Made by a program: the position numbers and the translations under genes | The notes under the pieces: model-generated | The model's database searches: none | Seen by the model: the letters and a program-made list of their open reading frames with translations, nothing else | What the model was told of the DNA's origin: nothing | NCBI GenBank assembly: GCA_044892505.1 | Contig: CM097882.1 | Span: 163,680,001 to 163,744,000, forward strand | DNA from: Schmidtea nova | Taxonomy: Eukaryota | DNA length: 64,000 nucleotides | Reading direction: 5' to 3' | In this document: piece after piece, positions 521 through 61,565 of the stretch | Layout of the letters: each line of letters starts with the position of its first letter | Position numbering within the stretch: position 1 is the stretch's first letter

Positions 521-2419
521 GTTGAGGTTCCGAGAATCTAAACTTGATGTTTTTTATATAAATTAAAAACAAAACATGGTTCTTTAAAATTTTATTTTAT
601 TATGGCAGTTACAAATTAAACAAAAGTAACAATTACCTCAAAAAATGTAATAACTTTGATCTGTTTTATATCTATGTATGTATATAAATATTTGCAGTTT
701 ACTGAGCTCGGATGTGTAAATCTATGTGCTCTAATTTTTGTTGTAATATCAATCTACTGAATTTACAACTCTTCTTAAAAGCTTTGATTTTTGGAGTCAT
801 TAGACTGAGAAATCAGTCTGCTTATATACTAAATTTCTGTTTTAACACCATTTCGAGTGTCAACACACTGTGTTTTGTGTAGATTTATTTTTGATTTTAG
901 TAAATAAAATTATTAAAAGTCTTGCACAAAATGTGCTTTATTTGCTTTTTCTTGGCACTAAGTGCCTTTTGTTTATATAAGAAATCTTCTTTCTTGGCAC
1001 TAAGTGCATTTTGTTTATTTTGTAAGCTTTTATTGCTCTCAAAATTTCTTTCTTTCCAATAATAATAATAATTTTAGCGATAATAATTTTAAAATAATGA
1101 TAATAATAATAACAATAACCACAACTGGTCGCGCCTGCTTATTAAAACGATTTAAAAATTAACTAAAATTAAATTAAATAATTAAAGGCGGAGCTTGATT
1201 GCTGTGAGAGATCGTCGAGCGAGCCTGAAACCGTTAAACGGTCTTATCGAAATCTATAAATAAATCTTATATTACATTTAATCTCAATTAGAAGCCTTTT
1301 TAATTGTATTACAAGTCTAAATGGCTCTAGCAAATTTGGAAGCAGTCTGTCAATGAAATTCGTCGCGTCTGTGTGCGGGTAGTGATAATTAGTGGTGTTT
1401 AGTCGGTGCGCACACAGACGAGAGTGGTTCAATTTTTCGTTGATTTGTGAAAAGATTGGTCCGATGAAATTATTGGAAATTCGAATTTTGAGGTTTTATA
1501 AAAAAGATTAGTTATTGTTTTACTGGATAATTGTGAATTTTTGGATTGTTAGGGCGGAATTTTGAGATTGGGGCTTTGTGAGAGTGAATTTGTAACTTTA
1601 TTATAAAAAACTTCAACATTTGTGGTTTTACCGATTCTTTGGGTGATTTTTCGAATAAAATTGGATTGATAATTTGGTTTGTAAAATTTTGAATTGTAAT
1701 TTTTAGGAGTTTATGTTTTTCGAAATTGTGATGAAGTGTGAATTTTGGAGATTGTGAAGAATTTAAAAATAAACTGCTTTGTGGATTTCTTATTGAATTT
1801 GTGGAATACTTATACTTTAATTTAAATATATATCTTTTTGAAAGCGTTATAAAGACTTGTGGAAAATTTGATATGAACGTTCATTATGTTTAAATATGAA
1901 TGGTGAAATGGAATCTGATCACGAACTATATTCTGACAATGATTCAAATTATAGTTTATGGGAAAGTGCTGACTTTTCCAGTAGCTTGGGAATTCCCTTT
2001 ACAAAGAGCCTGGATAAAGCTGCTTGTTATGAAGAGAATCCTAATTCGAATGTGGTCAATGGAATCGAGAGCTCTTTTGTTGATGATTTAATTAATGTGA
2101 TGTCTTCGCGAGATTCAATCATTTCTGATAAAGTGCGATCTTCAGTAATTGTAGAAAAGCTACAATTTAATTCACCGATATCTGACAGTGATTATTGGTG
2201 CAAATTGAATGTTGGTCGAACACCTCTTACAGAAAAACTCCAAAATTCTCCAATTTGTAAACTTTGTTATAATTTTCGAACGGGCATTTTGTCCAATCCC
2301 AGACTCATTCTTGATGATATAGAAGATAGATCTGAGGGAAATTATACTAATAAAACTGATGATATAAAATTGATGCTCGTAAATCGAAAAGACAATTCAA
2401 TCACTTCTTTCCAATCTCA

Positions 2420-2817
2420 GTTCGACAAATGACCAAATTCGTATAAAAACAGACCATATCTGAGGAAAATGATCAATAAAGGACGCAAGAATTATCTAAA
2501 ATTATACGCCTCAAAAGAGGACTTACCTCTGTCACGATTCTTAGAGAGTTTTGGAGAAGCAATGAAGTCAAATCCAAGGACTGTTTTTCTTTCGGAGCTT
2601 CTAATCAGCGTCAGGACACTTTTAGAGGATCCTCGTCAAATGGATATCAATCATGAGTCAAAAGCTTTATAGATTCTCGTAGCGGCCTCGAAGGATTTTT
2701 TAAAATCGAAAGGAAACGATTCATTGCCACTGAGAGGAGACATTCCGGAGATGACAGCTGACACTGAGCATTATGCAAGGAATCAGAAAATCAATCGCAG
2801 CTGGACGCGGCGAACCA
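2420..2817 (+). pseudogene. NAE1: Fragment of NEDD8-activating enzyme E1 regulatory subunit (NAE1/APPBP1)
   Basis: The frame of ORFs 1896/2469 continues past the TAG at 2670: ESFGEAMK...VRTLLEDPR.MDINHESKAL*ILVAASKDFLKSKGNDSLPLRGDIPEMTADTEHY. This resembles NAE1 ENFEEAIK...[36 protein letters not shown]. Confidence 0.7.
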
Positions 2818-2818
2818 T

Positions 2819-2836
2819 TGGTAGCAGAGCGTGGTT
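2819..2836 (+). promoter_or_regulatory. Primer-binding site complementary to initiator tRNA-Met 3' end
   Basis: TGGTAGCAGAGCGTGGTT, preceded by ...CA-T and followed by a CCC-TTCG-GGG hairpin. Confidence 0.7.
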
Positions 2837-3240
2837 CCCTTCGGGGGTCATGCGAAGCGGGTAAGCTCTATAATTTCTCATAGCTCTGTATTTTATAAAA
2901 AATTTAAAAAATTAAAATTAATAGTAAATTTAATGGGGGATTTAAGATTGTTGCGATGGGCCCCAGCGATCATCCCCACCCCTTAGTTGCGACTGATGAG
3001 CATAAAGATTGTTCACATAATAATCCTTCCATGAAAGATGTTATTAAGCTTGATAGTAGCTGTAGTGATACATCAAGCATTCCCTTTATTGAAAAACTTA
3101 AGGATACTTATGATAATCCCACAAAACCTGCATGGGGTTACGATAGCGATGAAAAGCAAACTTTACGTAAAGATTTTAATAAATCTAAAAATAAAAAAAG
3201 ATCATTTGATGAATCAAATAGACAAAGGGATAGTAGGTGG

Positions 3241-3546
3241 ACCGGTTATGTCAGTGAAGATTTTCTATTGAATATCAACCGGGAAATGTTGCAACAAAAT
3301 AGAATTTTGAAAGTAATCAGAAAAGAGTTAGGGGGAAAAGGCTTAGAACTTTTTGAACGAATAATAGAATACGAAGCTAATTATAAAAAGTTTTATGATC
3401 AAGTTGCTAAAAATATTAAAGTAGGTATTCATGAAGACAGTGTAAATGAAGCTAAAGTAGCGGAATGTTTGTGTTTTTATTCAATGCCAAGTGGTGATGC
3501 AAGTACAAGTTTAAAAGAGTATAGTCCGCGAATGAAAGAAAATAAA
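3241..3546 (+). pseudogene. HSP90: Hsp90 middle-domain fragment (captured, intronless)
   Basis: [24 protein letters not shown]...[21 protein letters not shown]...[18 protein letters not shown] matches Hsp90 [24 protein letters not shown]...[20 protein letters not shown]...SLKDYCTRMKEN. Confidence 0.9.
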
Positions 3547-3816
3547 ACGGAGTCAACTTTGCAATTGGGTTTACGATTGAGAGGTGGGATACAGATGTTT
3601 GTGAAGACTTTATCAGGGAAAACTATTACCCTGAAAGTTGAATCAAGTGACACAATCGAAAATGTAAAAGCGAGAATACAAGACAAAGAAGGCATTCCAC
3701 CTGACCAGCAAAGGTTGATCTTCGCCGGATAACAACTGGAAGACGGACGAACATTATCTTATTATAATATGCAAAGTGAATCTACCTTGCATTTGGTGTT
3801 GAGATTACGAGGAGGA
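3547..3816 (+). pseudogene. UB: Polyubiquitin fragment: tail of one unit (3547-3588) plus a full 76-codon unit (3589-3816) with TAA at codon 48
   Basis: [13 protein letters not shown] | [75 protein letters not shown]. Confidence 0.95.
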
Positions 3817-4900
3817 ATGGATACCCAAGATAAACTAAAGCAGTTAAAGAATGGGATTGAGAAGCGCCGCTCTCAGAAGACGCAACTCACCAAACTATTC
3901 AGGAGATCCTCAGAAGACCTGTCGGTAGAGGATCTTGTGCAACGCCGAGAGAAATAAGAAGAAAAGTTTGAAGAAGTGCTGGAGGACTGGAGCAGGCTAA
4001 AGAGCTTAGCAGAAGAGTTGGGAGACCTGAAAGTCGCGAGAAGCTTTGATCAGGATTTAGAAGATATTGAAGAGCGTAATGAATATTTATCGAGGAAGAT
4101 GGTAGAAGTAAGTTTTAAAGTAGGTTCGCAACGGGCTCTATCCGAGGAATATCAAGTAGAAGTCCATTCAAAAAGAGATTAGAGATTAACAAGAGCGTAG
4201 TTAATGAAGCGAATCGCTATCCAGAAAAAAGAATGATGGACAGAAGCATTGAAAGCCAAGAGATAGAAGAACAGAATTTATTAGTCCAGGAAGAAAATAT
4301 TCTTAGAGCCAAGGGGAAAAGTTATGAAGGCTTAGTATTGAAACGCTTGGATAAATTAAAAAAGATAGAGATTCCAGTGTTCAATGGAAAAACGTTAGAA
4401 TATGCTCAGCGGAGCAACCTTTGATGCCTGTGTGGATTCGGCTTTTGGAACAAAAGTAGAGAAGTTGCTGAATTTAAGGCAATCTTTAAAGGACGAACCA
4501 TATAGGGTTGTAAATCAACTCGGGTTTACAGCAGATGCGTATGAAGCAGCCTTGGCGTGGTTAGACAGGCGATATGGAGGTGTCGAAAGAAGCTTTCTCG
4601 CAATTTCAGAGGAATTAAATCGTTTTAATCCTGTTCGGTCAGATTCGATTGGTGAACTGGAAGCTTTTCAAGAGTTAATAAGTTCAGTGATGATAAGGCT
4701 TAAAGCGCTGGGCAAGAAAATGAGCTTGAAAGTGGATTTTTATATCAGGCGCTAATAAAGAAGTTATCTGAGGATTAAGTGTTCCAGTGGGAAAAACGGA
4801 GAACGGATAATAGAAAGGAGAAGAATGTAGAAGCAGTCGCTGAATGGATATCTCAATTAGCAGAAATGAAGCGAAACGTGTTGGAAGAAGTATATGGTTT
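3817..4900 (+). pseudogene. gag: BEL/Pao-type Gag (DUF1759-like), disrupted
   Basis: The Met directly follows ubiquitin GG. N-terminal coiled coil, then IEIPVFNG...EKLLNLRQSLKDEPYRVV...YEAALAWLDRRYG; stops and frameshifts present. Confidence 0.75.
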
Positions 4901-7900
4901 TACCGATCAACGACTAGCGTCTAGAAATGAGCAAATAGAGGTGAAACCATCTTGGAAAAATAAGAATCAAGGTAATTTCAGGACAAAGGGAGAAGAAAGA
5001 AGAACATTTGTGTCCAGAGAAGTACCGTCAGAAAGAATAATTTCAGAACTGAACAAAGAAATAAATAGCTTGAAAGAGAAAAATGGGAATTTGATAAATG
5101 AAAAAGTAAATAATAAAAATGAATTCGAAAATAGGAAAAATATTTTGGAATTGGAATTAGACGAAGAAATAATCAAGACATTGTCGTTAAAATTGAGAGA
5201 AAATGAGGTTGCCGATTCAGAGACTGAACTGAAATCTTGCCAAGTTAATTATGAGAGTTTATCGAAAAGCAAGAATGAATTTCAAAGTAAATTGGAATCT
5301 TTATTTGAAGAATATTCAAAATTATTTGACGAGCTGGCATTAGTTAAAGCTGGAAAAGAATTTGAGGAATTATGAAATCGAAACAAAACGCGCTCTTGCT
5401 GACAAGTCGGGTTTAATAACACAGCTTCATTCAAAAAAAAGTGCTTCAAAATAACATAGAAACGATTGAATTAGAACATAAAAAGGAAATTAATGAATCA
5501 GAAGTAAAATTTGAGAATTTGGCTAAAACTGAGAAGAAATTTTATCCGCTGAGATGGAAAATGTAAATGATATTAATGACAAATTGGCAACTGTAAATCG
5601 GGAACTAGAAATAAAAATTGAACGAAATGAAATCGATTTAAATGAGCTTACTGCAAAAGAAAGGCATTTTAAATGTGGAGATGAAAGAAAAGGAAAATGA
5701 TTACCTAGAACAACTTCGAGAGGCTAATGACAAAATCGCTTCTCAGCAAACCTTGGTGAAGGATTTGACGGAAGAAAATGGTAATTTAATTAATAAACTA
5801 AATGGTAGTCTGGGAATGATTGAAGATATTAAATTAAGCTTGAAGTCTTCAATGATAGAAAAGGATTTCTTGAAAATGGGACTCAATACTAAAAAGGAGT
5901 TGATTAAAGAAGTCTCAAGGAAATTGGAAATAATTACCGAAGAAGAAATTTGAATTTGTAACAATGCAATGAATACTGACGATAAATTGATCGAATCCAA
6001 AAGAGATGGAGAAGTAATTGAGAGTCATTTGGTTAAATTAGAAAGTAATTTTCTACGAAGACTGATCAATGACTCTATACACAAGTTATTTCAAATAATT
6101 CACTAACATCGATAAACACTGCATCTTATTAAAACAAGGTCTTTCATAACGCGAGTGTATATTTAAATATGCAAACTTTAAAAAGACTTCATTCTTACCC
6201 TATGATTTTTAGTGTAGAAAAACAGTTTTAGATCATTTAAAGATAGGTAGTCACGCGCTTGTTTTCTTGGCAATATTTTATTTTTGATATAATAAATAAT
6301 TTACCAAACTTATTGATCATTTCCGTTGTTAATTTATTAGTGTTTGTAATAAACTCCGTTTTCATATGCATTTTGTTCGGCATTTTTTGGTTCGTAGAAT
6401 TTGCTCTAACCGCAATAACATTGCTTCCATTCTAAATAACCATAATTAGCGATCAACTAAATTAATAAATAAATTTTAAAATCACGAGTCCAGTAACAAT
6501 AAATATTGTTTATTTATTAAAATTTATTGATTAAAAGTAAACTGTATGAATTAAATAAAAAATATTAAATTTACTAGATTGTTTATGTAGCAAGCAAAGG
6601 CGTATTAAAATTTTGCTATAACCTATTAACACTCGATACGCGAGAGATATTTTCAATTTTTTGTTTAAAATTTCGATTTATTTCTATTCGCTATTAATAC
6701 TAATTAAAAATGTTAGTGAATATAAAATCAAAGATTTAAGAATGGTGTTATGAGACGGAGATAATGTTATAGTAAAACACCTTACGGAATACTATGAAAT
6801 AAGTAACACGCGTTGCTATCAACGTTGCCGCTACTGAAGATTTCTTTAGAAAAGTATTTTTAAAATTTAAGAACTGTTTAAAATTAGCGCTGTATCTCAC
6901 TAAGTCAACACCACTTAANNNNNNNNNNNNNNNNNNNNNNNNNNNNNNNNNNNNNNNNNNNNNNNNNNNNNNNNNNNNNNNNNNNNNNNNNNNNNNNNNN
7001 NNNNNNNNNNNNNNNNNNNNNNNNNNNNNNNNNNNNNNNNNNNNNNNNNNNNNNNNNNNNNNNNNNGTAAATAATAAATTAATAAACACTTAACTAACTA
7101 ACAATTATTACCAATAACTAACTATGAACCAAATCTGTATATAGTCTTACTAATAAATTAGCTCTATACTAAACAATCAACTAACTTATTAATCCTCACT
7201 GAACAGCTAATTACTAATACTAAACAATCAAAGGTTAACTACTAACCAACCAACTCCACCGACTAACTTTACTAACAATTGACTAACCATCTCAGTCTAC
7301 TGACTAACCTTCCAAATACCTGCTTAAAAATATATATGAATGTTATCCCTTATATAGGGTTTCTCATTAGGTAGTGTTAAGATTTCATTTATTAGTGTTT
7401 TTCGTATTTGTGATTATTTATTAATAATTTTTAGATAAATAAATTAACACAATTATCAGAAAATACTAATAAATGAAAAATTAACACTATCAAGTGCAAA
7501 GGTCATACTATAAAATGAGAAACCCTATATCCGGAATATAGAAAGGATTCACATAAAACCTGAAATTAATAAAATATTCTATAACCTCTGATGTCTGCAT
7601 AATACTTTTGACTCTAATTGCCCTTTGATAGGTACAAATCCATGATTAATGAAGTGTGCACGTTTTGACCCATTTTATTTTTATTATTAATTGCGATGGT
7701 GATATTGGTTGAAGCTCCAAAATATGGTCCTTTTCATAATGTGTATTATAATGTATGTATTAAGCTGTACCTCCACGCACTGTTTTTATTTATTATTTTT
7801 TTATTTTATCGATTATTATTTTATAAATTATGATATAAATATAATAATTTAACCAAATAAAAAAATCAATACCTGAAAAACAAAACACAATGGATATTGA

Positions 7901-27482: not shown

Positions 27483-28806
27483 TTAAAAAAAGATCAAAAG
27501 TGAAACAAAAAGATAATTATGTTAATTTGTATTGTTGAGTTTAAACTTTTTAGGGACTCCTGGGTAAGCAAAAATTAATTGATACATATTTAAATTATCA
27601 TAATTATCTTTTTGTTTCACCTTCAATCTCTTTTTTTAAATCAATAATTTTCATATCATGTGCCTAACAACAAAAAATAATTTTGATCTATAGTTATACA
27701 ATTATTATTATGAAAATTATTGACTTAAAATATTTAAATTAATTGAAGCCACCTTTTTCCACCTAAAAATATTGATTTATTCATTTAAAATTCAATAAAT
27801 TAATTTTTTTTCCAGTCTGGACATTGTTAAAAGAAATAAATATCAATAATAAAAAACATCGTATAATTCAAATAATAATATTTTTAGTTTTGCGATTCTC
27901 CAATCGCTGGATTTAAAATACACCAAAAATTAATAATTCGTATTTCCAAAGAAATTATCCAAAATTATAATACATGCCATCTGCTTGTTTCTTAATTAAC
28001 CTTGAAATTATAATTTATTCCTAGTGAAGGAAATTTGTTGTTTTAGTATTTCAAATTATTCTTTGATACTTCGAATTTTATCCGACTTATCAAATAAGAT
28101 ATAGATTAATAAAATAAAGTCAACAATTAGCGCTTTCGCAAAAAGATTAATATGATATGTTTGAACTCATTAATGGAATAGAAAACATCTGTTGCTAAAA
28201 TATGACAAGTAGCATACGAATGATAATAATCATTGATAAAACAATCATCCTGGAAAAAAATTTTTAAAAAATATTTTATTAAAGGTATTTGTTTTTTTGA
28301 GTAATTTTAAGGTAGTCTTCATTAAAGTTCTATTGAAATTTTAATAAAAAATGTAGTACTATTTGAAATTAATAGTAAAATTAGTAAAGTTAGCAAACCC
28401 TATCTAAAATTTAATAAATTGAATAATTCTTTTTTTAAAGATAAAATATTTATTCATTCATTAAAACTTTTACTACTGATAAATTTTTATGAATGAAAAT
28501 TCCTACACAAATTTCAATGAATTAGTTCAATTCTAAAAAGTCAACTAAAATATTTAAACTCAATCAGGACATTACCCTGCCTGGACCGTCACGAGAGCAG
28601 CCAATTACATGGTAAAACATTCACTACAACGGCAATAGGTTAAATAAAATTAGTATTAACTTTATTGTATTTTGTCACAAATTCCAAAACTTTTCACAAT
28701 TTCTCTAACTACCAGACTTATTCCAATGAAAATGGTAACTATAAATATGTTGAAAGGATTTCTGCACTTTTTAAGTCTTAATATAAAGAACTGAAAAGGT
28801 TATCTT

Positions 28807-28944
28807 TATAAGATTCATAAAAGAAGCACGCTTTTTAATTTAAAAGTTTTTATTTTCTCTAACACATCATATTTAAACAAATCAAATTGTTTAAAATATT
28901 GTTTTTAAAATAATTGTGTTGAATAATTAATTAATGTTCCAACA
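28807..28944 (-). repeat. 3' LTR (138 bp)
   Basis: TGTTGGAAC...GAATCTTATA, preceded on the minus strand by PPT AAGGGGGAGTTG (28945-28956). Confidence 0.95.
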
Positions 28945-28954
28945 CAACTCCCCC

Positions 28955-30010
28955 TTAAGATTGCGGAGCAAATTCATCAGCTCCAATCCATGGCTTAAGA
29001 CGGTCGATGCTAACATTCTTTATTTGGTCTCCAATTTTGATTTTTAACGTTTTATTGTCATCGGATCTTTCTATAACGTCGTATGGTCCAGTGTACGGAT
29101 CTTCTAACGACTTCCTAAATTCAGCTCGAAGCCACACTTTTTTGCAATTAACAAATAGTTTGCTTACAAAACTATGTTGTTTTGGTTGGCTTGTTTTTTT
29201 GTTACTTAGTTGTGAGTCGATTTCCACTTGAATCGATGCTAAATTGTCTTCGATATTGGTTAATATTGGTTCACTAATAACAAAATCTCCGGGTAATCTG
29301 GCTCGACAACCAAATGTGAGTTGCGCTGCCGATGGAGACGCATTAGACTTCGTGCAGTTTCTTAAACTGAGTAGAATCTTGGGGAGATCATGGGCCCACG
29401 TCTTGGATGAGTTTTCTGATGCTGCTCTTATCGAGTTTTTCATGGCTCTGTGCCATCTTTCTATCTTCCCATTGGATTGAGGGTGATATGCTGTTGTTCG
29501 CTTCCTTTCGATTCCCATTACCTTACAGAAATTGGAGAATTTTTCTGATTCAAACTGTGCTCCTTGATCTGTTATAACAATTTCTGGAACACCAAAACGA
29601 CTGATCCACTCTCTTTCAAACGTTCTTACTATCATATCTGTTGTGATATCATATATAGGAATTGCTTCAACCCATGACGTTCCTCGGTCTATCATAGTCA
29701 TGATATATCTTTTGTTGTTGACGCTCGGCAGAGGACCCACTATATCTAGATGAACTGTGATAAACCTTCCTTTGGTTTCTATGGTACCTAACGGAGCATG
29801 TGTGTGTCTTGTTATCTTTGCACCTTGACATCTTTGACATTGTCTACACCACTCTCTGATGTCACTTTTCATCTGTGGCCACACATATCTCGCTTTGATC
29901 AATTCTATCGTTGGTTTGGATGCTGGATGAGATATGTTATGAATTCTTAGAAATTCTTGATATCGGAATATTTTTGGCAGTACTATTCTGGTCTCCCCCG
30001 TAGAGTTGTA
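28955..30010 (-). CDS. int: Gypsy integrase, separated from RT-RH by a 1-nt frameshift near 30011
   Basis: The frame upstream of ORF 29902 reads STGETRIVLP...HNISHPASKPT, then HLDIVGPLP, ITDQGAQFES, HPQSNGKIERWH and GPYDV. One extra T in the TTT run at 30010-30012 would restore a single pol frame. Confidence 0.9.
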   Translation of the reverse strand, partial: YNSTGETRIVLPKIFRYQEFLRIHNISHPASKPTIELIKARYVWPQMKSDIREWCRQCQRCQGAKITRHTHAPLGTIETKGRFITVHLDIVGPLPSVNNKRYIMTMIDRGTSWVEAIPIYDITTDMIVRTFEREWISRFGVPEIVITDQGAQFESEKFSNFCKVMGIERKRTTAYHPQSNGKIERWHRAMKNSIRAASENSSKTWAHDLPKILLSLRNCTKSNASPSAAQLTFGCRARLPGDFVISEPILTNIEDNLASIQVEIDSQLSNKKTSQPKQHSFVSKLFVNCKKVWLRAEFRKSLEDPYTGPYDVIERSDDNKTLKIKIGDQIKNVSIDRLKPWIGADEFAPQS

Positions 30011-31935
30011 AATGGGATGTCATCTATAGTACTACATAACTGGAGACTTGCATTTTTCAGTGTAGATAAGGTCTGATCTTTCCTTTGTTCTTCTTTTAAA
30101 CTTTCTTTAGTGAATTCAACGAAATTAATCTCCACAGTTGATACTTGTAGGTCTTGATTACTGCATTGTCTGGACAAGAGATCGGCAACTACATTGTCTT
30201 CCCCTTTTATGAATTCGATGGTGAAATCAAATTGATCAAGGTATTCGATTATTCGCCATTGTCTTGGCGATGGATCTTTCATATGTCTAGCTCGTAGTAA
30301 AGGTTTGTGGTCCGTCATGACTGTAAAATGAGAACCGTCTAAGAAATGCTTAAAATGTTTTATAGCTAAGAATATTGCCAATAACTCCCTGTCGAAAGTA
30401 GAATACTTCTGTTCGGTTAAATTTAATTTCCTGGAAAAGAAGGCAATAGGAAATGATTTATTTTCTTCGTTGATTTGACTTAGACTTGCTCCAATTGCTT
30501 TAGACGATGCGTCAGTGCATAATAGGAATGGCTTGGATGGGTTAGGGTATGAGACGTTGCTGATTTCGCGTACGGAATTTTTGGCATTCATGAAGGCCTG
30601 TGTATGGCAGTCTTGCCATAAGAGATCTTCCTTTTTATCGGCCGATTTTTGTAACAAGTCATGCAGTGGACTCAGTGTATCTGACAGTCTTGGAATTAGC
30701 CAGTGATAATAGCCGATGCCACCAATAAAACGTCGTAAATCTTGACTATTGGTTGGCTTCTTTAAATTGCTAATTGCTAAGGTGCGTTCCTTCGATGGTT
30801 TGATTCCCTGTTTTGTTAATTCGAAACCCAAAAAATTTACCTTTTCGGTTTGGAATTCGCATTTGCTCTGGTTGACTATGAGACCAGCTGCTTGAAGACT
30901 GGCCATCACACTCGACACGTGTGCTTTATGCTCTGCTTCAGTCTTGGAGAATATCAAAACATCATCAATATAGGACAAGGAATGTTCTTGATGTTCTCGG
31001 AGTACGTTGTCCATGTGTCTCTGAAAAGTTTGAGAGGCGTTTCTAAGTCCAAAAGGCATCTTTGTATATTCGAACAATCCAAACGGTGTTATGACTGCTG
31101 TCTTTGAAATGTCTTCGTCACAAATCGGAATTTGATGATATGCCTTTTCCAGATCTAACTTAGTGAATATATGAGGGTTGTTGATCTTGTTCAGTAAGTC
31201 TTGAATCCTCGGAAGTGGATATCTGTCAGGCTGGGTTATTTCATTTAACATTCTGTAGTCTCCACAAGGCCGCCATGACCCATCCGGCTTCTTAATTACT
31301 ACTAATGGAGATGCCCAGTCACTCTTGCTTGCCCGAATTACACCTTCATTTAAGAGTCTGTCAAATTCTTTCTTTGTTGCAACTAATTTTTCTCCAAAAA
31401 GTGGTCTTTGTCTTTGGGCTACAGGGGAACCGTTGGTGATAATTTGTAGTTTCGTGGTTAATGTAGTTTGATTGTTGATTGTAGCACAAATTTTATCGCA
31501 TAGTCTTTTCCGCGCTTCTGCCCTTTCGTTACTGCTAGGGCAACATATTGATCTGGAATAACAACTAACATCGATTTTGTGACGGGCCAGGAAATCTGCA
31601 CCCAAGATTGGACGAGATATGCCGGCTATGGCAAAAGACCATATAAATTTAGTTCTGAATCCTTCAATAGTAAATTCAATTGTTTTCTGCCCGTGGTATG
31701 TGATTGATGAATTGTTGGCGGATACTAAAGATCGATGTTCTCCATTTCTATCAGGCTTGAAACGGTTTGCGGGAAGGATACTGAGATCAGCGCCTGTATC
31801 TATGAGAAAATTAACTTGTTCTCCATTTATGATTGCTGGTATTTCGAATATTTGTGAGTTGCTTTGTCCCGAGAAAGAGGATATGATTTTGTAGGTTTCA
31901 CTGTTCGGGTTCAATGAAACCTTCTCTCGTTTCCC
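29983..31935 (-). CDS. pol: Gypsy Pol (PR-RT-RNase H), reached by -1 frameshift at G GGA AAC (31935-31929)
   Basis: LIDTGA protease motif, YIDD RT motif, CTDAS...ELLAI...TDHKPL...NVVADLLSR RNase H. The listed ORF start is TTG, and the slippery heptamer is in the correct phase. Confidence 0.93.
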   Translation of the reverse strand, partial: GKREKVSLNPNSETYKIISSFSGQSNSQIFEIPAIINGEQVNFLIDTGADLSILPANRFKPDRNGEHRSLVSANNSSITYHGQKTIEFTIEGFRTKFIWSFAIAGISRPILGADFLARHKIDVSCYSRSICCPSSNERAEARKRLCDKICATINNQTTLTTKLQIITNGSPVAQRQRPLFGEKLVATKKEFDRLLNEGVIRASKSDWASPLVVIKKPDGSWRPCGDYRMLNEITQPDRYPLPRIQDLLNKINNPHIFTKLDLEKAYHQIPICDEDISKTAVITPFGLFEYTKMPFGLRNASQTFQRHMDNVLREHQEHSLSYIDDVLIFSKTEAEHKAHVSSVMASLQAAGLIVNQSKCEFQTEKVNFLGFELTKQGIKPSKERTLAISNLKKPTNSQDLRRFIGGIGYYHWLIPRLSDTLSPLHDLLQKSADKKEDLLWQDCHTQAFMNAKNSVREISNVSYPNPSKPFLLCTDASSKAIGASLSQINEENKSFPIAFFSRKLNLTEQKYSTFDRELLAIFLAIKHFKHFLDGSHFTVMTDHKPLLRARHMKDPSPRQWRIIEYLDQFDFTIEFIKGEDNVVADLLSRQCSNQDLQVSTVEINFVEFTKESLKEEQRKDQTLSTLKNASLQLCSTIDDIPFTTLRGRPE

Positions 31936-32846
31936 TGGTTCTCTCTGTTGTTGTTAAAAGTGTTGTTGTTGTTGAATTTGTTGTTGTTGTTGAATTGGTT
32001 GTTGTTGTTGAATTGGTTGTTGTTGTTGAAATTGTTGTTGTTCATTGAGGATATGTTTGACGGTTCAAGATTTTGATATTTCTCTCTGATGTATTTTTCT
32101 GATCGATAGTTGTCGTTCTGATTTGCATTCCAATCACATGGCGGCTGACATTTCCTCGCCCTATGCCCAAATTTACTATGATAAAAACATAACTTACTGG
32201 TGCTTTTATTCCTCAATTGTTGACGTATTACATTGATTTCTTCCTGTAGTTCCATAATTGTTCTCGTCTTATCTCCTAACTCTTGAGTATTGCAATTTTC
32301 GTGTTCAACTGTCTTTACTGATTGCCGCTTTGATAACATTATTCTGTCTGCTGTGACTGCTAATTTTCGAAGGTCCGTCGTTGGCATCGATAATAGGATG
32401 TCCTGAACAGAGCTTGGTAATAGTCGCATGAACAATTCCCGAGATATAGGACTGTTGAATGGATCCATGGCTGTATCTATTCTTTGTATTTGCCCCGTAA
32501 TGTGCTGAAGTGCTTCTGATGGAGATCGATCTCCAAGGCATTCTTCTCTCATCAATTCTGTTATCGATATTTTTCTTGATAGCTCAAATTCTGCTAGGAT
32601 TGCTTCTTTCAGAGTTGAGTACGGAAGCTCGGTTTCTGAGTCCAATAGATGTTCGTATTTTGATAGCATTGTTGTTGGAAGATTTGAAATTAAATAAAAA
32701 TATTTTGTAGTTTCTTCTGTAATTCTTGATATCTTGAAACTAGCCTCCACTTGTTTGAACCACAGACTCTGGTTCTGAAAAATTGCTGGAATTTTGACCG
32801 AAACATGGTCAACTTGGGAGTTGCTGACACCATTTATAAGATTCAT
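31911..32846 (-). CDS. gag: Gypsy Gag
   Basis: VKIPAIF...LWFKQVEASF...IT...KY; CFYHSKFGHRARKCQPPC knuckle; Asn-rich C-terminal repeats. Confidence 0.92.
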   Translation of the reverse strand: MNLINGVSNSQVDHVSVKIPAIFQNQSLWFKQVEASFKISRITEETTKYFYLISNLPTTMLSKYEHLLDSETELPYSTLKEAILAEFELSRKISITELMREECLGDRSPSEALQHITGQIQRIDTAMDPFNSPISRELFMRLLPSSVQDILLSMPTTDLRKLAVTADRIMLSKRQSVKTVEHENCNTQELGDKTRTIMELQEEINVIRQQLRNKSTSKLCFYHSKFGHRARKCQPPCDWNANQNDNYRSEKYIREKYQNLEPSNISSMNNNNFNNNNQFNNNNQFNNNNKFNNNNTFNNNRENQGNERRFH

Positions 32847-32972
32847 AAAAGAAGCACGCTTTTTAATTTAAAAGTTTTTATTTTCTCTAACACATCATAT
32901 TTAAACAAATCAAATTGTTTAAAATATTGTTTTTAAAATAATTGTGTTGAATAATTAATTAATGTTCCAACA
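32835..32972 (-). repeat. 5' LTR (138 bp)
   Basis: Same sequence as the 3' LTR; followed by AA and PBS TGGTGTCAG (9-nt match to the tRNA-Leu-type PBS). Confidence 0.95.
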
Positions 32973-36726: not shown

Positions 36727-37528
36727 ACTTAACAACCATAAAACCCAAAAACAAAGTTTGATCTATGGTCATATGACAATGAAAATTATTGATACAAAAA
36801 AAAGATCAAATGTGAAACAAAAAGATAATTACGATTAAATTTCATTTTGCGAATTTTAGTCTATTTTAACTTATTTATTAATTTTGGTGCAGTTTCTAAA
36901 TGGTAAGGGACAGATCCTTAATTGTACATTGAAATATGATTTTTGTGCAATTTTTTTAATAAGATTTTTTGAGAAACGTGTCTATTGCAAAAAAATTTAA
37001 AAAAAGATTGGGATGGACACGAATTTTTTAAGTATGTTCAAATAAACACTTGAAAAGGGCTATGCTAAAAATTAGTGTAGTTTATGTAAAAATTTGATCT
37101 AGTCTAAAAAAATTTAAATTTCAGAAATAGAAAAGGAAATATCAAAGGTAGAAATAAAAGATGTTAGTGTGTTAAATAGTATTTTTTCCGCTCTGTGAAA
37201 GTAAGATAATCAATAAAAATATTAATATCATAATTATCTTTTTTCACCTTTGATCTTTTTTTATTATTATTATCAATAATTCTCATAATGATGACTATAG
37301 ATCAAAATTTTTTTTATAAACAATAACACAATATTTCGGCACAGCCTTTATCAAGTAATAAAGGCTGTGCCGAAATATTGTGTTATTGTTTATAAAAAAA
37401 ATTTTGATCTATAGTCATCATTATGAGAATTATTGATAATAATAAAAAAATATTAATATTAATAATAATTATTATTATCAATAATTCTCATAATGACTAT
37501 AGATCAAAATTTTTTTTTATAAACAATA

Positions 37529-37561
37529 ACACAATATTTCGGCACAGCCTTTATCAAGTGT
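37529..37561 (-). ncRNA. Mirror copy of the U3-A8 hammerhead
   Basis: Opposite arm of the perfect palindrome centred at 37570. Confidence 0.65.
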
Positions 37562-37578
37562 GTATTTCTCAGAAATAC

Positions 37579-37611
37579 ACACTTGATAAAGGCTGTGCCG
37601 AAATATTGTGT
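37579..37611 (+). ncRNA. Minimal type I hammerhead ribozyme, U3-A8 variant
   Basis: ACAC-TTGATAA-A-GGC-TGT-GCC-GAAA-TAT-T-GTGT: stem I ACAC/GTGT, stem II GGC/GCC, palindromic ATAT stem III. Confidence 0.65.
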
Positions 37612-37721
37612 TATTGTTTATAAAAAAAAATTTTGATCTATAGTCATTATGAGAATTATTGATAATAATAATAAAAAAAGATCAAAGGTGAAAAAAGATA
37701 ATTATGATATTAATAATAATA

Positions 37722-38937
37722 CACTCATACCTCGCTATACGGCTGCTCTTTATACGGCTTTTCGCTATAACGGCCTACTTTAATTACGGCACTTTTTCGA
37801 TTTACGGCCTAAAATGTTTCGTTATACGGCCAAAAAAAGTGTGAAAAAAGGTGCGAAAAAAACATGAATGTACATATTTTCTTGCGTTGTCGCCACAGTG
37901 TAGGTGCAATAGCCACTTTTAAGGCATATTATTTACGTAGAACATTTCGAAAACTTATAAACGTAACTGATGGTGAATCTTCGATTAAACAATTTTGGAA
38001 AAACTACAACATTAAAGATGCGTTAGACAACATTAGCGAATCGTGGAAGGAATTGAAATCAACCACAATGAACCATGTTTGGAAAAAAATGTGGCCAGAA
38101 TGCATAAAAACTGAAGATCCTGAAGTTGATTCTCTTACTGAAATAAGACAAAGCATATTGAACCTAGCGAATGATCTTGGTTTTGAGGATTTGGAAGAAG
38201 GTGATGTGCTTGATTTGCTAAATGCTGATAGAGAACCCCTTTCACACGAGGAACTGGTCTATATCGAAGAGGACCGATCACTTGATGAGGAGCCAGAGCC
38301 TGATGTATGTAAACAGCTAACCTTAAAGAACTTGTCCAGTGCGCTTTCTCATTTCGAACAAGGAATAAAAATCCTTCTTCAAAGTGATCCAGACGTAGAA
38401 CGCAGCGCTAACGTTTTTCGCGGAATTAACTCAGCGATTAACTGTTATGTAGAACTGCAAAAAGAAGCAAGAACCAAGGCAAGACAAACAACGTTGGATA
38501 AATTTCTTAAAAAATCATCTAAATCTACAACAGCGGAAAATGATGATGACATTATATTGCAGCTTACCGATTCTTCATGTTCGTCTTCAGATTAGAACTC
38601 TGTCTTTAAAAATTTTAATTTATGTATTTTATTATGTATCAATTTATTAATTTCGATTTTATTAATGAATTTGTTTTTGTTTTTTTTTATTTCAGTTTAT
38701 TGTTATATATAATATGTACTTGTTATTTATTTTTATTTTATATGTAAGCATTTTTAAATGAAATAAAAAGAAAAAAATGCATTTTAAACTAAAAACTACG
38801 TTATTTTATAAAAAATTGGAACCAATCCTATTGAATTTATATGGAATTGTATCAAAATATTTGATTCGTTATGCGGCGTTTCGCTTTGCGGCCAACTTTC
38901 CTGGAACGTATCTAGGCCGTAAAGCGAGGTATGAGTG
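37722..38937 (+). mobile_element. pogo/Tigger internal-deletion derivative
   Basis: TIRs CACTCATACCTCGCT(A/T)TACGGC with TA TSDs. ORF 37864-38595 keeps only the transposase C-terminal part (ATFKAYYLRRTF...WK...I...W). Confidence 0.9.
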
Positions 38938-50433: not shown

Positions 50434-53400
50434 TCAATATATACCGGTGGATGTAGATGGCTGATCACGCAATTGCTGCTCCATCCTCACCAGGTATTCG
50501 TGGAGTCTGCGCGATTCAGCCGTTTCGCCATCATCGAACTCCTCATCATCAAATCCATCAGGTTCGGCTGGGGTAATTGTTTCATCATAACCTATAATAG
50601 TATTTTCTACCCTATAGTGCCCATATGCAAAACTTTTGTTTTTCGACACCCAATTGCGTTTGTCGTCGTTGCAATTGAGTGCCGTTTTTGTATTTTTGAC
50701 ACTATAAACCTGATGATTTTTTGAGACTATACGAAACTGCGGGACTTTATATATTTTACTTGTTGTGTAACAGTCTAGGTAATGCGAATGGTTAAGTCCC
50801 GCAGTAGCCAAACATATGCCCTTGGCTTTTAAACACTCCTCGTCGCCAAGTAAACTATAGCATTTAGGGCGAAGAAAAACCCACTCTTCATATTTGAAGC
50901 CCTTATTTTCGTCCTTAAACTTTCCTATAACAGAATCCAAATTACGCGAAAATAAGGGATGGCTCGGGTCATAGTTCGAAGTATCTAAAAGTTGATCCCT
51001 CACCATAGCGGGCAAAAGAACAGAAAGCCTACAATTAACAATTTCAAGAAAAAAGGAGTCTGTGTCTCCTGCTGCAATATTAATCTTACAATTAAACTCT
51101 TTCCTATATTTCTCTAACTCTATATATTGTAGTTCATACATTCTTAGTTTAGACAAGTCCAAGACCGTCTGTCCTATATAACTTGGCCTATCTAAACACA
51201 CAGACTCCTTCCTCAAAAGCACTGATATAAGATTATGGTCAATTTTCGTTGATTTCCTAAAATACGGGCTACTGCTATATGTTATTAATTTACGTGCCGA
51301 ATTGCACAGTCTTAAATTTATACGTTTTTTCAGATTCTCTACGGTTTTGCCGTAGAGACTGTTATTTAATAACTTAAAATAATTTTTGTCGAGTTTCGTG
51401 GTGGAAGAAGCTCTCAAAGCAGTATTTGTATCAACGTATTTCTTAAAAAGCCTACTTTGATGGTATTTAATAGCTCGATGTATTTTGGTCACTACAACAC
51501 CTAACCTCAGAAACATCTGCAAAAGTCGCCAATGAAGCACATAGTTTTTCTTAGGCATGTGCGTCAAAAGCAACTTATGCACCTTCGAACCTGGCACACA
51601 CATCTTTTCAGCAGCTACTGGTAAATCATCCAGTAAGTCGTGAATAGATGCCGGTATCTCTAAATCCACTTCTATGGTATAACCATAGTTAAGTGAACAT
51701 AAATCAACCGTAGTGCACTCCAACAAGATGTCATGAAGCAAGTGGTCATCCGTGACCCAAACAAAGTCCCCGTCCGGTAAGTTTTGTGAAAGAGCCCAGC
51801 CATACAGATTATTAATATCTATATACAGCAACTCTGTATCTGGGCCTGATTTAACATGATGTTTATTAACGAAAGTGAGGCCGCCCCTGATTCCACCCTC
51901 AAAAAAGTTGTACATCTCCATATCTTGCAAAAGCTCGATAGGAGATTCCAAAGTCATTAATGCAGAACACCAGCTCATACCCGGTATACCCAAAAAATTC
52001 AACGGCTCAAGTTTATTATGAGCTATACTCTTTGCACGAAATTGTTGAAAATAATCAGCCAAAAGAAATATGTCGAGTTTCATGTAAACCATCATATAAT
52101 CAAATAATGAGGTACACGAATTTTCTCTCCATATTTCTTTTGCCTTTTCATAATCAGCAATTTCGACACCTTCCCAAATCGGCGGCAATTCAGTGATCGA
52201 CCTCAAGACAGATAAAGATGTAGCAACATCATATGGAAAAATTCCCTTACTGGTGATAATAGTCCCGGTAAATTCCGAAGAAGTAAGAGGAAAAGATGTT
52301 AGAGTTTTTACTAAGTTATTTAGAGATTCGCTGGCAAATTGATACGAATCGATAAACTTCACTGTGAGTGATCCGATTCTCGCAAAAAGACTGAGAAACT
52401 TCTCACTGGTGACAGGAACACAGCTAATGTTCCACGATTCGTATTTAGAAAGTCCGAATTTGAGGATATGATGTAAATCATATCCCCGTAGATTATGAAA
52501 AACTATCGGCAAAGTGTGTCGAATTTGCCTATTTATATTACATTCGTTGCATGCTGCTCCTAGGTAAGCACCTGTAAAGTGATCGTGGTCTTTAACAGGA
52601 TTTACTAAAATATTTTCACACAAGTAGCAGTGTGTTGCATAAGAAAAATGTTGCATGTCTTCGTAGGTTAATATTATTTGCTTATTTTTATTTGCGAAAT
52701 AATAGGGCGTTACAATTTTTCGACTTATATTTTCAATTTCTTGCAGGAATTTGGCAACGCAATCAAGGCCATAGAAGGATTTATATAATTTAACCCCAGT
52801 GAAATTATTAATAAGTAATAAACCCGCAGAAATGGGCAAATGTTTTTGGTAATATTTCGAGTCGCGAGGTAAAATTGCCTCAAAATCGGCATAAATTACA
52901 AAAGGAGGGGTCACTGTCTTCGTCCAGTCGCTAAAACGTAAAAATTTATTATTAGGAAGTGTATACAAAGTTGTGCCTATTTGGTTGGCATCACAAAGAC
53001 CACGATGTCTCTTGAATGTATCTGAATTACGGAAGCCATGCAAGCACCTAGGACACCATTTATTATAAATTCTCACTGGGGTTATGGCCGAAGTTTTACA
53101 ATTTAAAAATTTGTCGATGTTATATATTCCTGCGTAATGAAATTCTTTTTTATTTTCAATTAAAAGTAGGTTTATGACAGTGCCCCCCACTACTTTACTT
53201 TTATAGATAATATCGATGAATGGATGTTTCATCACTTCACTTTTATTAGTCAAGTCAACTAACGCATTTTCGTCATACGATAATACATTAATTGCATAAC
53301 CGGGGTTTGATAATTCAAATCTGCTAATGTTACTTAGCTTCATTGGCATATCATTTATATCAAAGCGAAGTGATGTCAAGTTATAAGATGTTGGTAATTG

Positions 53401-54482
53401 TCGAATTTCATCATCAACCTGATTATAATTTTTAACAGACAAGACACTATAAAGGAAGCAAAGATTGTCGGTGTTATTGACATTGATAATGCAATCCTTA
53501 TTAAGTAAAGATTTCGGTGTTGAAAGAAATTTTTTACCTCTTAATCTGGTAATTTCTGAGTATTTCGTTATTACAAAACTAATATATTCTATTTTATTTA
53601 ATTTCCAATTTGAACCCTTCTCGTTCATTTGGATAATTTTTTCGTTGAGATGTGTAACGCCCTCATCAATGAAATCAGTCGTCCATACACGCGCTGAATT
53701 TGAAATGACAAAAGACTGGTATTCATCGTCTTTCATCATTTCAACCTTTATACAAAATTGGATCTTAACAGATTTCATGGCAGAAATAATCGATGTTAAT
53801 TTTTCTAGTAAAAGAGATGGAACAGAAAGATTATTTAAATTTAAATGTGCAACATCCATCTTAACGATGATGTGCGAATTATTGAGATCAGAATCAACAG
53901 ATATTAACCCTAAACCTATTTGCTTAACAGAGTAACAGTTTAAAACTATAGGGTCTATTTCCTCTTCATCTGACGAAATAACAACCACATCGTCATCATC
54001 GTCACTTATATCAATAACCTCAAATTTACCTATTTTATTTGGTGTTTCACATACTGTTTCTGTATTTGTTCTTTTTAATAATTTGGGAACACATTCCACA
54101 TTATTGATTATTTGGTTGGGAACACAGTCCACATTGCAAGAGGTTGGGACAGAGTCCACATTAATAATTACTTGTTTGGGAACGCAGTCCACATTACTTT
54201 TTAATAATTTGGGAACACTGTCCACATTATTTTGCTTATTACTATTTTGTTGAATGTTTTTCGCGAAAATTGAATTAAATAAATTCTTTTTAGAACCATT
54301 GAATTGTGTTAAATGGTTTCTGTGATTATTATAAAATTGTGTGTAGGTGCATGTATCTAAAGTTTTGCATGTAGGGCAAATAAGATAGAAAATACTATTA
54401 TATTTGTAATAATAGTACTTTTCCATAAGACTATGACAGTCATTATGAAAAGTACTATTACAATAAGAACTGTATAGTTTAC
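50434..54482 (-). CDS. polB: Protein-primed family B DNA polymerase, main exon (exon 5)
   Basis: Exo motifs YADFE, HNLRGYD and YMKLD; KGIFPY; Pol motifs YIDINNLYG, KLLNNSLYGK and AGDTDS; C2HC finger; EndoVII-like insert. Confidence 0.97.
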
Positions 54483-54599
54483 CTAAATTTATCAAAATAT
54501 CAATATTTTATTATAAAAAATAATGTTATAAAGTATATAATAATTATTATACAATCGATATTGAATTTAAACTATAAATTCAATATCGGATGTATAATA

Positions 54600-55260
54600 A
54601 TGTCATGTATCATAAAAATTTTATAATTTATCATTTCTCATAAAATATCTTTTCTCATAAAATAAGATTGTCATAAAATCGATCATTATAATAAAATTTT
54701 CATAGTTTCATAGTCATAAAATCAATCTTTTTAATAAAATTTCATATTCATAAAATCAATCTTTTTAATAAAATTTTCATAGTTTCATTGTCATAAAATC
54801 GATCATTATAATAAAATTTTCATAGTTTCATTGTCATAAAATCAATCTTTTTAATAAAATTTTCATAGTTTCATTGTCATAAATTCGATCATTATAATAA
54901 AATTTTCATAGTTTCATTGTCATAAAATCGATCATTATAATAAAATTTTCATAGTTTCATTGTCATAAAATCAATCTTTTTAATAAAATTTTCATAGTTT
55001 CATTGTCATAAAATCGATCATTATAATAAAATTTTCATAGTCATAAAATATCTTTTCTCATAAAATTTTCATAGTCATAAAATCGATCATTTTTAATAAT
55101 ATTTTCATAGTCATAAAATCAATATTTTTAATAAAATTTTCATAGTCATAAAATCGATCATTTTTAATAATATTTTCATAATCATAAAATCAATATTTTT
55201 AATAAAATTTTCATAGTCATAAAATCAATATTTTTAATAAAATTTTCATAGTTTTATTGT
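54600..55260. repeat. AT-rich tandem array (~33-43 bp units) inside polB intron 4
   Basis: Unit aaaatcgatcattataataaaattttcatagtttcattgtcat and variants. Confidence 0.9.
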
Positions 55261-55425
55261 ACAATATTTATTTATAATTACTATTTTATTATTTAATAAC
55301 TTTGATGTTATAATTAAATAATAAAATAGAACTTATAAATAAAATTTGTACAATAAAAGTTAATTTATAAAAAAATTGAAATAAATAATTTATAAATAAT
55401 TTATAAAAAATAAATAAAATCATAC

Positions 55426-55941
55426 ATTTCTGCCGACCATTATAGCGGTCATCTTCTGGTGCAGCAACATCCCTAATAAGGGGCATGGGTTCATCCCTAA
55501 TAAGGGGCATATCAGCATCATCCCTAATAAGGGGCATATTTTCATCCCTAATCAGGGGTATATTAATTTCGGAAGTTTCTTCGGCTTTAAATTAATCATT
55601 TAATAATAATAAATAAAAGAATAAAAGAAACAATTACCATCGATATCAACGTTTAATCTTTCGTTTCTGCTAGCTGCATAGTATTGAGTTGTTAATTGTA
55701 CATTTGTTACTGTAATAATAATAATAATAACAATAATGAAATTAGTATTTTTTAAAATTTTTACCATTTTCATTCTCTTTTTCAGTATCTTTTTCGGTAT
55801 TTAAATTGGTTGAAATCTTCATGTTGAGATTCATTTTTCCTATAATTAATTTGTTATAAAATTTATAAAATAAATAAAATAAAAAATACCAAATCTATTC
55901 CTACGGATATTTTCTTTAATCGATTGAGAAATGTTGTTCAT
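55426..55941 (-). CDS. polB: Upstream coding exons 1-4 of polB (55941-55890, 55839-55765, 55709-55638, 55584-55426)
   Basis: GT-AG introns of 50, 55, 53 and 943 nt, all phase 1. The joined frame is open into the main ORF and gives 1468 aa. Confidence 0.7.
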
Positions 55942-56834: not shown

Positions 56835-56866
56835 TTTTTACAATAACATTTATTATACTAAATTGT

Positions 56867-57243: not shown

Positions 57244-57296
57244 AATTATAATATTAATAATAATAACTTTGGTTATTTATACTGTTTGAGCTCTGC

Positions 57297-61545: not shown

Positions 61546-61565
61546 GATTACTACTGTAAATATAT

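What the first reader, a model, noticed from the sequence alone, without database searches (positions are those of the whole stretch)
2420..3830. Retroelement carrying three proteostasis gene fragments (NAE1, Hsp90, polyubiquitin) ahead of a BEL/Pao Gag
Seen: an Hsp90 middle-domain fragment runs in frame into ...LRLRGG|ubiquitin|LRLRGG|Met-Gag, and an NAE1/APPBP1 fragment lies just upstream. All pieces are intronless. Known: host deubiquitinases cleave after LRLRGG, and LTR elements can capture mRNAs by template switching. Inference: the ancestral element made a polyprotein that host DUBs cut into Hsp90-fragment, ubiquitin and Gag, so ubiquitin served as a protease-free processing signal, as in pestivirus ubiquitin insertions. 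All three captures belong to ubiquitin/NEDD8/chaperone pathways, which may reflect selection or simply high mRNA abundance.
Basis: partly seen in the sequence, partly recalled or inferred. Interest (0 to 1): 0.8.

Follow-up and report, generated by a model that had tools for sequence, protein, structure and literature searches.

The report
Ubiquitin-capped retrotransposons hoarding host mRNAs
This is a broken copy of a recently active group of jumping genes, in what is likely a planarian flatworm, whose members carry pieces of many different host messenger RNAs at their front end, followed by a conserved ubiquitin that likely lets host enzymes cut this cargo off the shell (Gag) protein.

Summary
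The three fragments are real. The window holds a decayed, pol-less, 3'-truncated copy of a multi-family BEL/Pao clade. Young sister copies (most LTR pairs 99-100% identical) have one frame running from inside the 5' LTR through the primer site, a spacer, ubiquitin, Gag and Pol. NAE1 lies in the LTR and lacks four host introns. It is one of 24 named host cargos. The Hsp90, proteasome and UBA1 pieces evolve neutrally; NAE1 is inconclusive. The ubiquitin next to Gag is under purifying selection, and its Gly-Gly persists across Gags only 30-43% identical. The upstream Gly-Gly is lost in 34 of 44 family-B copies. Best reading (0.7): host deubiquitinases free Gag from whatever is translated upstream, as in cytopathic pestiviruses. 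Cleavage is untested and no RNA data were obtained. New here: family-A LTRs carry the host spliced-leader exon directly before a variable cargo, a likely shortcut for capturing trans-spliced mRNAs. Nine literature searches found no description. The scan had no note on this genome; one note describes an analogous ubiquitin-fibre fusion in an algal virus.

The parts
1126..2817 (+). 5' LTR (TGGT...ACCA), about 1.7 kb, mostly captured cargo
   Evidence: Sister matches start at about 1126 and stop at 2817; many are solo LTRs. Paired LTRs with the same ends occur in young copies.
1230..1273 (+). Decayed copy of the host 42-nt spliced-leader exon; in sister LTRs it is followed by variable cargo
   Evidence: 3 mismatches in the first 30 nt to the form in L094. 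The same 42-mer heads three SL-RNA-like genes in L228.
1361..1420 (+). GCGTCTGTGTGCG motif block; family-B LTRs begin with this motif; possible promoter element
   Evidence: Sequence. Function inferred.
1881..2399 (+). Unidentified cargo ORF with ATG at 1899, in frame with the NAE1 piece
   Evidence: No Pfam hit; the Atlas search on a sister copy was uninformative.
2400..2798 (+). NAE1/APPBP1 mRNA fragment, four host introns absent, two stops in this copy
2819..2836 (+). Primer-binding site, 18 nt complementary to the 3' end of a host tRNA-Met
2837..3252 (+). Leader spacer, open in the Gag frame in young copies, frame broken here
3253..3549 (+). Hsp90 middle-domain fragment from host gene L115/L116; neutral passenger
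3550..3588 (+). 13-codon tail of host polyubiquitin unit 2 (L174), giving the upstream LRLRGG
   Evidence: 39 of 39 nt identical in the least-diverged sister, 35 of 39 here. Microhomology to Hsp90.
3589..3816 (+). Gag-side ubiquitin ending LRLRGG; stop at 3730 in this copy
3817..5037 (+). BEL/Pao Gag (DUF1759 at about 4450-4720), broken by stops and shifts
5038..6051 (+). Coiled-coil ORF of unknown origin standing where pol is in autonomous copies; the element is cut off at about 6051

Best explanation
The window holds a broken copy of a BEL/Pao retrotransposon clade in which one reading frame runs from host-mRNA cargo inside the LTR through a conserved ubiquitin into Gag-Pol, and host deubiquitinases likely cut after the ubiquitin Gly-Gly to release Gag with a fixed N-terminus. 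Shown: the single frame, the mRNA origin of cargo, neutral drift of cargo sequence with the frame kept, purifying selection on ubiquitin, and persistence of only the Gag-side Gly-Gly. Inferred: translation starts in the LTR cargo; cleavage by host USP/UCH enzymes; the cut-off leader is junk. Because Gag is indifferent to what precedes ubiquitin, lineages tolerate any in-frame cargo. Cargo likely enters when reverse transcriptase switches at a microhomology onto a co-packaged host mRNA during minus-strand synthesis. In family A the spliced-leader copy in the LTR would let the enzyme return to the element by homology after copying a trans-spliced mRNA to its 5' end.
For: Single frame: 24 of 29 fetched full-length copies are open from at least 104 codons upstream of the primer site to at least 1794 codons past it (chosen from long-frame hits). 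In 74 of 91 LTR stretches the longest open run before the primer site is in the Gag frame, median 186 codons against 16 and 12. Ten different family-B leader lengths keep one frame. Gly-Gly: family B keeps it on the Gag side in 45 of 46 copies and upstream in 10 of 44, the upstream loss arising through three different codon changes; every Gag-side departure in any family is a singleton. Gags are 29-43% identical between families and start with Met, Asn or Gly after Gly-Gly. Selection, shared variants N:S: family A ubiquitin 14:17 against Hsp90 22.5:3.5 (p=0.003); family B 23:16 against 58.5:12.5 (p=0.011); neutral expectation 2.3-3.3 for ubiquitin and 2.8-4.6 for Hsp90. No shared change at L8, I44, K48, H68, L71, L73, G75 or G76 in A or B. 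Precedent: cellular hydrolases cut ubiquitin from NS3 in BVDV CP Rit (PMC8310069, passages). Spliced leader: 27 of 67 LTRs with a recognised start carry it, 26 of 29 in family A, and sequences diverge right after it; SL-RNA-like genes with the same exon, a GT donor, an Sm-like run and a 3' hairpin are in L228.
Against: No protein, cleavage or RNA evidence; start site and polyadenylation site are unknown. Family B has Cys at ubiquitin 74 in 44 of 44 copies and changes at V70, and some family-A copies have Gly at 72, which may weaken enzyme recognition. The Gag-side ubiquitin is a mosaic of host units, so re-capture from host mRNA explains part of its conservation, and between-family dN/dS for ubiquitin is inflated in the synonymous term because host units differ from each other at dS above 1.3. 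Copies are related, so the p-values count variants, not independent events. Family B captures cargo with the spliced leader in only 1 of 38 LTRs, so the leader is not required. No post-leader cargo was traced to a host trans-splice acceptor.
Confidence: 0.7

Rival explanations
1. Ubiquitin is kept as a folded domain for another purpose (folding aid, sorting or budding signal, decoy for ubiquitin-binding defence) and is cut slowly, not at all, or by the element's own protease.
For: The whole fold is conserved, not only the tail. R74C in all family-B copies. The element encodes an aspartic protease. Ubiquitin on Gag matters for HIV budding (PMC3751857, search listing only).
Against: Leu73, Gly75 and Gly76 are invariant among shared variants while neighbours vary. 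An uncut fusion has no need of a terminal Gly-Gly (established ubiquitin biology). Gags of families B, C and D have no Met at the junction.
Confidence: 0.15
2. Ubiquitin is a passenger that looks conserved only because the element keeps recombining with abundant host polyubiquitin mRNA.
For: Mosaic origin from units 1-3 of L174, and a recent 39 of 39 nt tail.
Against: Family-A codons 5-50 carry more synonymous and far fewer amino-acid differences from their donor than the adjacent Hsp90 piece does from its donor (N:S 1:10 against 16:6 in L175; 4:8 against 34:8 in the window), so the unit is older yet better kept. Family B's unit matches no sampled host unit closely.
Confidence: 0.07
3. The cargo pieces are selected effectors that interfere with the host ubiquitin-proteasome and chaperone systems, or are captured with a bias toward these pathways.
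For: 12 of 24 named cargos belong to ubiquitin, proteasome or chaperone pathways. The commonest LTR cargos seen are proteasome alpha, UBA1 and NAE1. NAE1 shared variants N:S 18:13 against singletons 82:31 (p=0.13).
Against: Hsp90 dN/dS 0.7-1.9 against its host gene with deletions in family B. UBA1 N 5.5-11.5 against S 2.5-3.5; proteasome piece shared 6:3 in both halves. Cargos are truncated, chimeric and swapped freely. The catalogue started from proteostasis hits and favours conserved genes.
Confidence: 0.15

Closest known systems
BEL/Pao LTR retrotransposons (Belpaoviridae)
   Same: Single Gag-protease-RT-RNase H-integrase frame with DUF1759, Peptidase_A17 and DUF5641; TG..CA LTRs, tRNA primer site, polypurine tract, 5-bp target duplications.
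   Different: The frame starts inside the LTR and crosses the primer site; ubiquitin caps Gag; the LTR interior is exchangeable host mRNA; family A holds the spliced leader.
Cytopathic pestivirus ubiquitin insertions (BVDV Osloss, CP1, CP Rit; PMC8310069, passages read)
   Same: Host ubiquitin, sometimes with a piece of another host mRNA in front, placed before a viral protein so that cellular hydrolases make its N-terminus.
   Different: There they are described as variants arising by recombination in persistently infected animals. Here the arrangement is fixed across four diverged Gag types of a genomic element and is under purifying selection.
LTR-mediated retroposition in animals and maize Bs1 (PMC5131818, passages read)
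   Same: Partial, intronless, sense-strand mRNA pieces joined at microhomologies; multi-gene chimeras; further rounds of copying.
   Different: In the Drosophila cases of that paper retrocopies replace internal element ORFs. Here most cargo sits in the LTR of fully coding elements and is read in frame with Gag-Pol.
Planarian Burro/GYPSM1 giant elements (PMC6431247, passages read)
   Same: Planarian LTR elements with host-like domains, including a Ubi2/SUMO-like one, in a long polyprotein.
   Different: Burro is Gypsy-type, about 30 kb, with Gag at the N-terminus. These are 7-10 kb BEL/Pao elements with true ubiquitin before Gag.
Cellular ubiquitin-fusion precursors (polyubiquitin, UBA52, RPS27A, FAU, SDE2; recalled, FAU/SDE2 from PMC8013793 passages)
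   Same: A ubiquitin or ubiquitin-like unit cut after Gly-Gly frees the C-terminal partner.
   Different: Here the partner is a capsid polyprotein and the ubiquitin is itself preceded by variable cargo.
Spliced-leader copies in flatworm mobile elements (PMC12582326, passages read)
   Same: Leader sequence found in LTR and LINE elements.
   Different: That paper treats them as by-products of trans-spliced element transcripts. Here the leader sits at a fixed LTR position and marks the boundary of a variable cargo.

Membership tests
BEL/Pao (Belpaoviridae) | Gag with DUF1759 and zinc knuckles, then protease, RT, Pao RNase H (Peptidase_A17) and integrase, in that order | tested here: met
   Sister L101, 2227 codons. 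The window copy has only the Gag part.
BEL/Pao (Belpaoviridae) | Paired LTRs, primer site, polypurine tract, short target duplication | tested here: met
   (5-bp duplications at L094, L136, L153, L166). The window copy lacks the 3' LTR.
BEL/Pao (Belpaoviridae) | RT groups with reference BEL/Pao elements in a tree | not tested
   No reference RT set was fetched.
Ubiquitin processing-signal fusion (pestivirus type) | Complete ubiquitin ending Leu-x-Gly-Gly directly before the released protein, not followed by Pro | tested here: met
Ubiquitin processing-signal fusion (pestivirus type) | Ubiquitin and its Gly-Gly maintained by selection | tested here: met
   with the caveats on mosaic origin and related copies.
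Ubiquitin processing-signal fusion (pestivirus type) | Cleavage by host hydrolases shown | not testable with these tools
   Needs protein work.
LTR-mediated retrocopy | Host introns absent | tested here: met
   NAE1: four introns absent. Hsp90: a 5' UTR intron absent in the longer capture in L176. UBA1 piece lies within one exon, so uninformative.
LTR-mediated retrocopy | Microhomology at junctions | tested here: met
   Hsp90 to ubiquitin tail: host sequences share CAAAAGGAG. NAE1 3' end: 9 of 10 nt with the LTR end. No chance control was run.
Spliced-leader-assisted capture (proposed) | The LTR 42-mer is the host SL exon | tested here: met
   Three genes in L228 with this exon ending ATG, a GT donor, an Sm-like run and a 3' hairpin. 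No Rfam family matched. Identity with the published planarian leader is recalled, not read.
Spliced-leader-assisted capture (proposed) | Cargo after the leader starts at a host trans-splice acceptor | not tested
Burro/GYPSM1 | Gypsy-type, about 30 kb, Gag at the N-terminus | tested here: not met
   7-10 kb, Pao domains, cargo and ubiquitin before Gag.

The most novel reading that the evidence does not exclude
An active retrotransposon clade has evolved a two-part gene-capture device from host signals: the spliced leader inside the LTR acts as a universal landing site for reverse transcriptase coming off any trans-spliced mRNA, and a host-cleaved ubiquitin shields Gag from whatever is captured, so that fully coding elements keep sampling, translating and shuffling host mRNA pieces.
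Probability: 0.4. Interest if true: 0.92.

Novelty: new variant of a known kind. Interest (0 to 1): 0.8.

Why it matters
If true, a genomic retroelement depends on host deubiquitinases to mature its capsid, a dependence otherwise documented for pestivirus variants, and fixed here over deep Gag divergence. It would explain how coding elements can carry cargo without losing function, and it offers a concrete, testable route by which trans-splicing feeds gene capture. Practically, hundreds of intronless NAE1, proteasome, UBA1 and Hsp90 fragments in this genome are transposon cargo and will mislead gene annotation, read mapping and RNAi design.

Tried and rejected
RNA: no RNA holder listed; no read-level result was obtained, so expression is open. 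An intron between the primer site and Hsp90 was considered from a GT..AG pattern and dropped, because young copies are open across it without splicing. Between-family dN/dS for ubiquitin (0.06-0.34) was not used as primary evidence, because host units differ at saturation. IQ-TREE codon fits gave no readable omega. Ubiquitin-Gag fusions in other organisms: two protein searches were swamped by polyubiquitins, and none of the 120 listed in either carried BEL domains, which is weak evidence. The NAE1 'longer' search found nothing. Two motif patterns missed host NAE1 (one hit an SAE1-like gene, one a non-gene). The upstream UBA1 exon was not found. Atlas searches left the 1881-2399 cargo and the coiled-coil ORF unnamed. 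The 'inframe' label printed was off by one base; the counts quoted come from that call's per-frame tally. The paper on planarian SL3 was not held. No structure or complex prediction was run, as it would pass by likeness to ubiquitin.

Full report
Observation. A NAE1/APPBP1 piece matches solved NAE1 chains at E=5.6e-9. An Hsp90 middle-domain piece matches at E=1.5e-30. Pfam finds ubiquitin and the BEL/Pao Gag family DUF1759 downstream. The order is Hsp90 piece, 13-codon ubiquitin tail ending LRLRGG, one ubiquitin ending LRLRGG, Met, Gag. This copy is dead: stops at 2430, 2670, 2862, 3730, 3955, 4180 and 4198, no pol, no 3' LTR.

The element. The window lies in a 1.25-Gb genome at 27% GC in this window. 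The host is probably a planarian, inferred from its spliced-leader genes and my recollection of the published leader. A DNA search gave 2331 candidates, of which 40 were scored; all share Hsp90-Ub-Gag. The NAE1 piece gave 401 candidates, 40 scored, 93-100%. Most NAE1 copies stop at window 2817 and start near 1126: this is a TG..CA LTR, followed by an 18-nt site complementary to a host tRNA-Met. NAE1 is thus inside the LTR.

Young copies. A search with a sister's Gag-protease found near-complete family-A copies and about 88 places of a second family, B, 45% identical over that region. L094 has LTRs 99.8% identical and one frame of 2572 codons from inside the LTR to the end of pol. L101 reads ThiF (UBA1 piece), Hsp90, ubiquitin, DUF1759, protease, RT, Peptidase_A17, integrase, DUF5641 in 2227 codons. 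Of 29 full copies examined, picked from long-frame hits and so biased, 24 are unbroken from the LTR past Gag. Polypurine tracts and 5-bp target duplications are present. Two more Gag types, C and D, turned up. Gags of A, B and C are 29-43% identical.

What is constant. In 87 distinct copies (32 A, 46 B, 7 C, 2 D) Gag follows a ubiquitin directly. The first Gag residue is usually Met in A, Asn in B and D, Gly in C. What lies before that ubiquitin varies: Hsp90 pieces of several lengths, a second ubiquitin, or Hsp70. The Gag-side Gly-Gly is kept in 28 of 32 A, 45 of 46 B, 6 of 7 C and 2 of 2 D copies, and each departure is a singleton. The upstream Gly-Gly is kept in 29 of 32 A but only 10 of 44 B copies, lost through three different changes at one codon.

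Selection. Against its host donor L115 the Hsp90 piece has dS 0.09-0.15 and dN/dS 0.7-1.9: a recent capture, shared between families by recombination, drifting freely. Counting variants against each column's commonest codon, after dropping copies with a stop in the piece, shared N:S is 22.5:3.5 for Hsp90 (18 copies) and 14:17 for ubiquitin (26 copies) in A, and 58.5:12.5 (40) against 23:16 (43) in B. Singletons in A ubiquitin are 69.5:27.5, the neutral range. In each of the 30 family-A copies whose Hsp90 piece passed the ungapped-alignment check (35 tested, 5 set aside for indels), ubiquitin codons 5-50 had a lower N:S than the Hsp90 piece; these copies are related. Against this: ubiquitin units are mosaics of the host gene L174, B has Cys74, and V70 varies. 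UBA1 and proteasome cargos are neutral; NAE1 is inconclusive (p=0.13).

Cargo. The host NAE1 gene was found. The window piece spans five exons with four GT-AG introns absent, at 83-95% identity. A longer Hsp90 capture in L176, with the same 3' breakpoint, lacks a 5' UTR intron. Junctions show microhomology; I ran no chance control. Named cargos number 24. Twelve are proteostasis-related: NAE1, proteasome alpha, UBA1, PAC1, TCP-1, Hsp90, Hsp70, ubiquitin, another ubiquitin-like domain, FKBP, F-box/LRR, TRAF/RING. Twelve are not: CNH, DCB, QLQ, SAM decarboxylase, RNR small chain, p27, FHA, helicase, PAF67, ankyrin, Angel-like, MYND (several hits are below curated cut-offs). Of 49 antisense ORFs scanned (51 listed) one hit Pfam, and it was a Gag knuckle from a neighbouring inverted copy. 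Cargo next to the primer site is in the Gag frame: 74 of 91 LTR stretches, and ten leader lengths in B share one frame. Sequence is free but frame is not, which points to translation from the LTR into Gag.

Spliced leader. About 104 nt into family-A LTRs lies a 42-mer ending in ATG, after which LTR variants diverge (26 of 29 A, 1 of 38 B). The same 42-mer heads three genes in L228 with a GT donor, an Sm-like run and a 3' hairpin; Rfam has no match. Conserved terminal ATG in flatworm leaders is stated in PMC7346339 (passage), and planarian trans-splicing in PMC10899757 (passages; its supplementary figure with the sequence was not opened). I infer that reverse transcriptase, having switched onto a trans-spliced mRNA, copies to its 5' end and returns by leader homology, so only one chance switch is needed. 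This is untested: the RNA ends are unknown, no post-leader cargo was mapped to a host acceptor, and family B does without it.

Mechanism and odds. Most likely (0.7) host deubiquitinases cut after the Gag-side Gly-Gly, as cellular hydrolases do for BVDV CP Rit (PMC8310069, passages). Family A, with both sites, would also release a free variant ubiquitin; family B would leave it on the leader, whose Gly-Gly end could be a KLHDC2 degron (PMC8013793, passages; speculative for this host). Rivals are an uncut or otherwise-used ubiquitin (0.15), re-capture without selection (0.07), and selected or biased proteostasis cargo (0.15, compatible with the main model).

Prior art. Nine searches listed no paper on ubiquitin-capped Gag in a retrotransposon or on leader-assisted capture. 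I read passages of PMC6431247, PMC5131818, PMC8310069, PMC8013793, PMC10899757, PMC7346339, PMC4558846 and PMC12582326, no whole texts and no supplements. Repbase and subscription papers were not searchable and may hold annotations of these families. The scan had no notes on this genome; one note elsewhere describes an analogous ubiquitin-fibre fusion, not checked here.

Verdict. Observation confirmed, first reading partly supported. A new variant of BEL/Pao; interest 0.8.

Noticed in passing
window 50437-63500: Polinton/Maverick-like element: a 1357-codon ORF, A32-type ATPase, integrase-chromo ORF and a TBP-like ORF at 62234-62743.
   Followed up: no
window 28805-32972 (-): Young Ty3/Gypsy-type element with 140-nt identical direct repeats and three open frames for Gag, protease-RT-RNase H and integrase.
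   Followed up: no
window 37220-38592 and 39100-46550: DDE_1 transposase ORF and nested inverted-repeat elements.
   Followed up: no
L082 (G000:C1:510.09-510.13 Mb): Tandem tRNA-Met array at 458-bp spacing; 1034 matches of the 3'-end pattern in the genome.
   Followed up: partly
L228 (G000:C2:409.01 Mb): Cluster of three spliced-leader RNA-like genes. A second leader variant appears in some LTRs (L032, L055, L057, L177).
   Followed up: partly
flanks of young copies: About 27 of 43 two-LTR copies, counted by eye, sit in (TAA)n or (AT)n runs, suggesting a microsatellite target preference.
   Followed up: no
L109-L110 (G000:C1:453.34-453.36 Mb), L132: Head-to-tail arrays of whole elements sharing LTRs.
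   Followed up: no
L174 (G000:C1:378.7 Mb): Three-unit host polyubiquitin whose units differ at 32-37 synonymous codons, so little concerted evolution, unlike L171 and L173.
   Followed up: partly
L157, L164, L168: LTR cargo expanded into a 36-nt tandem repeat that keeps the Gag frame.
   Followed up: no
L013, L017: Chimeric LTRs that start the NAE1 piece and switch into the proteasome piece after about 65 nt, showing recombination between LTR variants.
   Followed up: partly
window 5038-6051 and sisters: Coiled-coil ORF replacing pol in many non-autonomous copies; origin not identified.
   Followed up: partly
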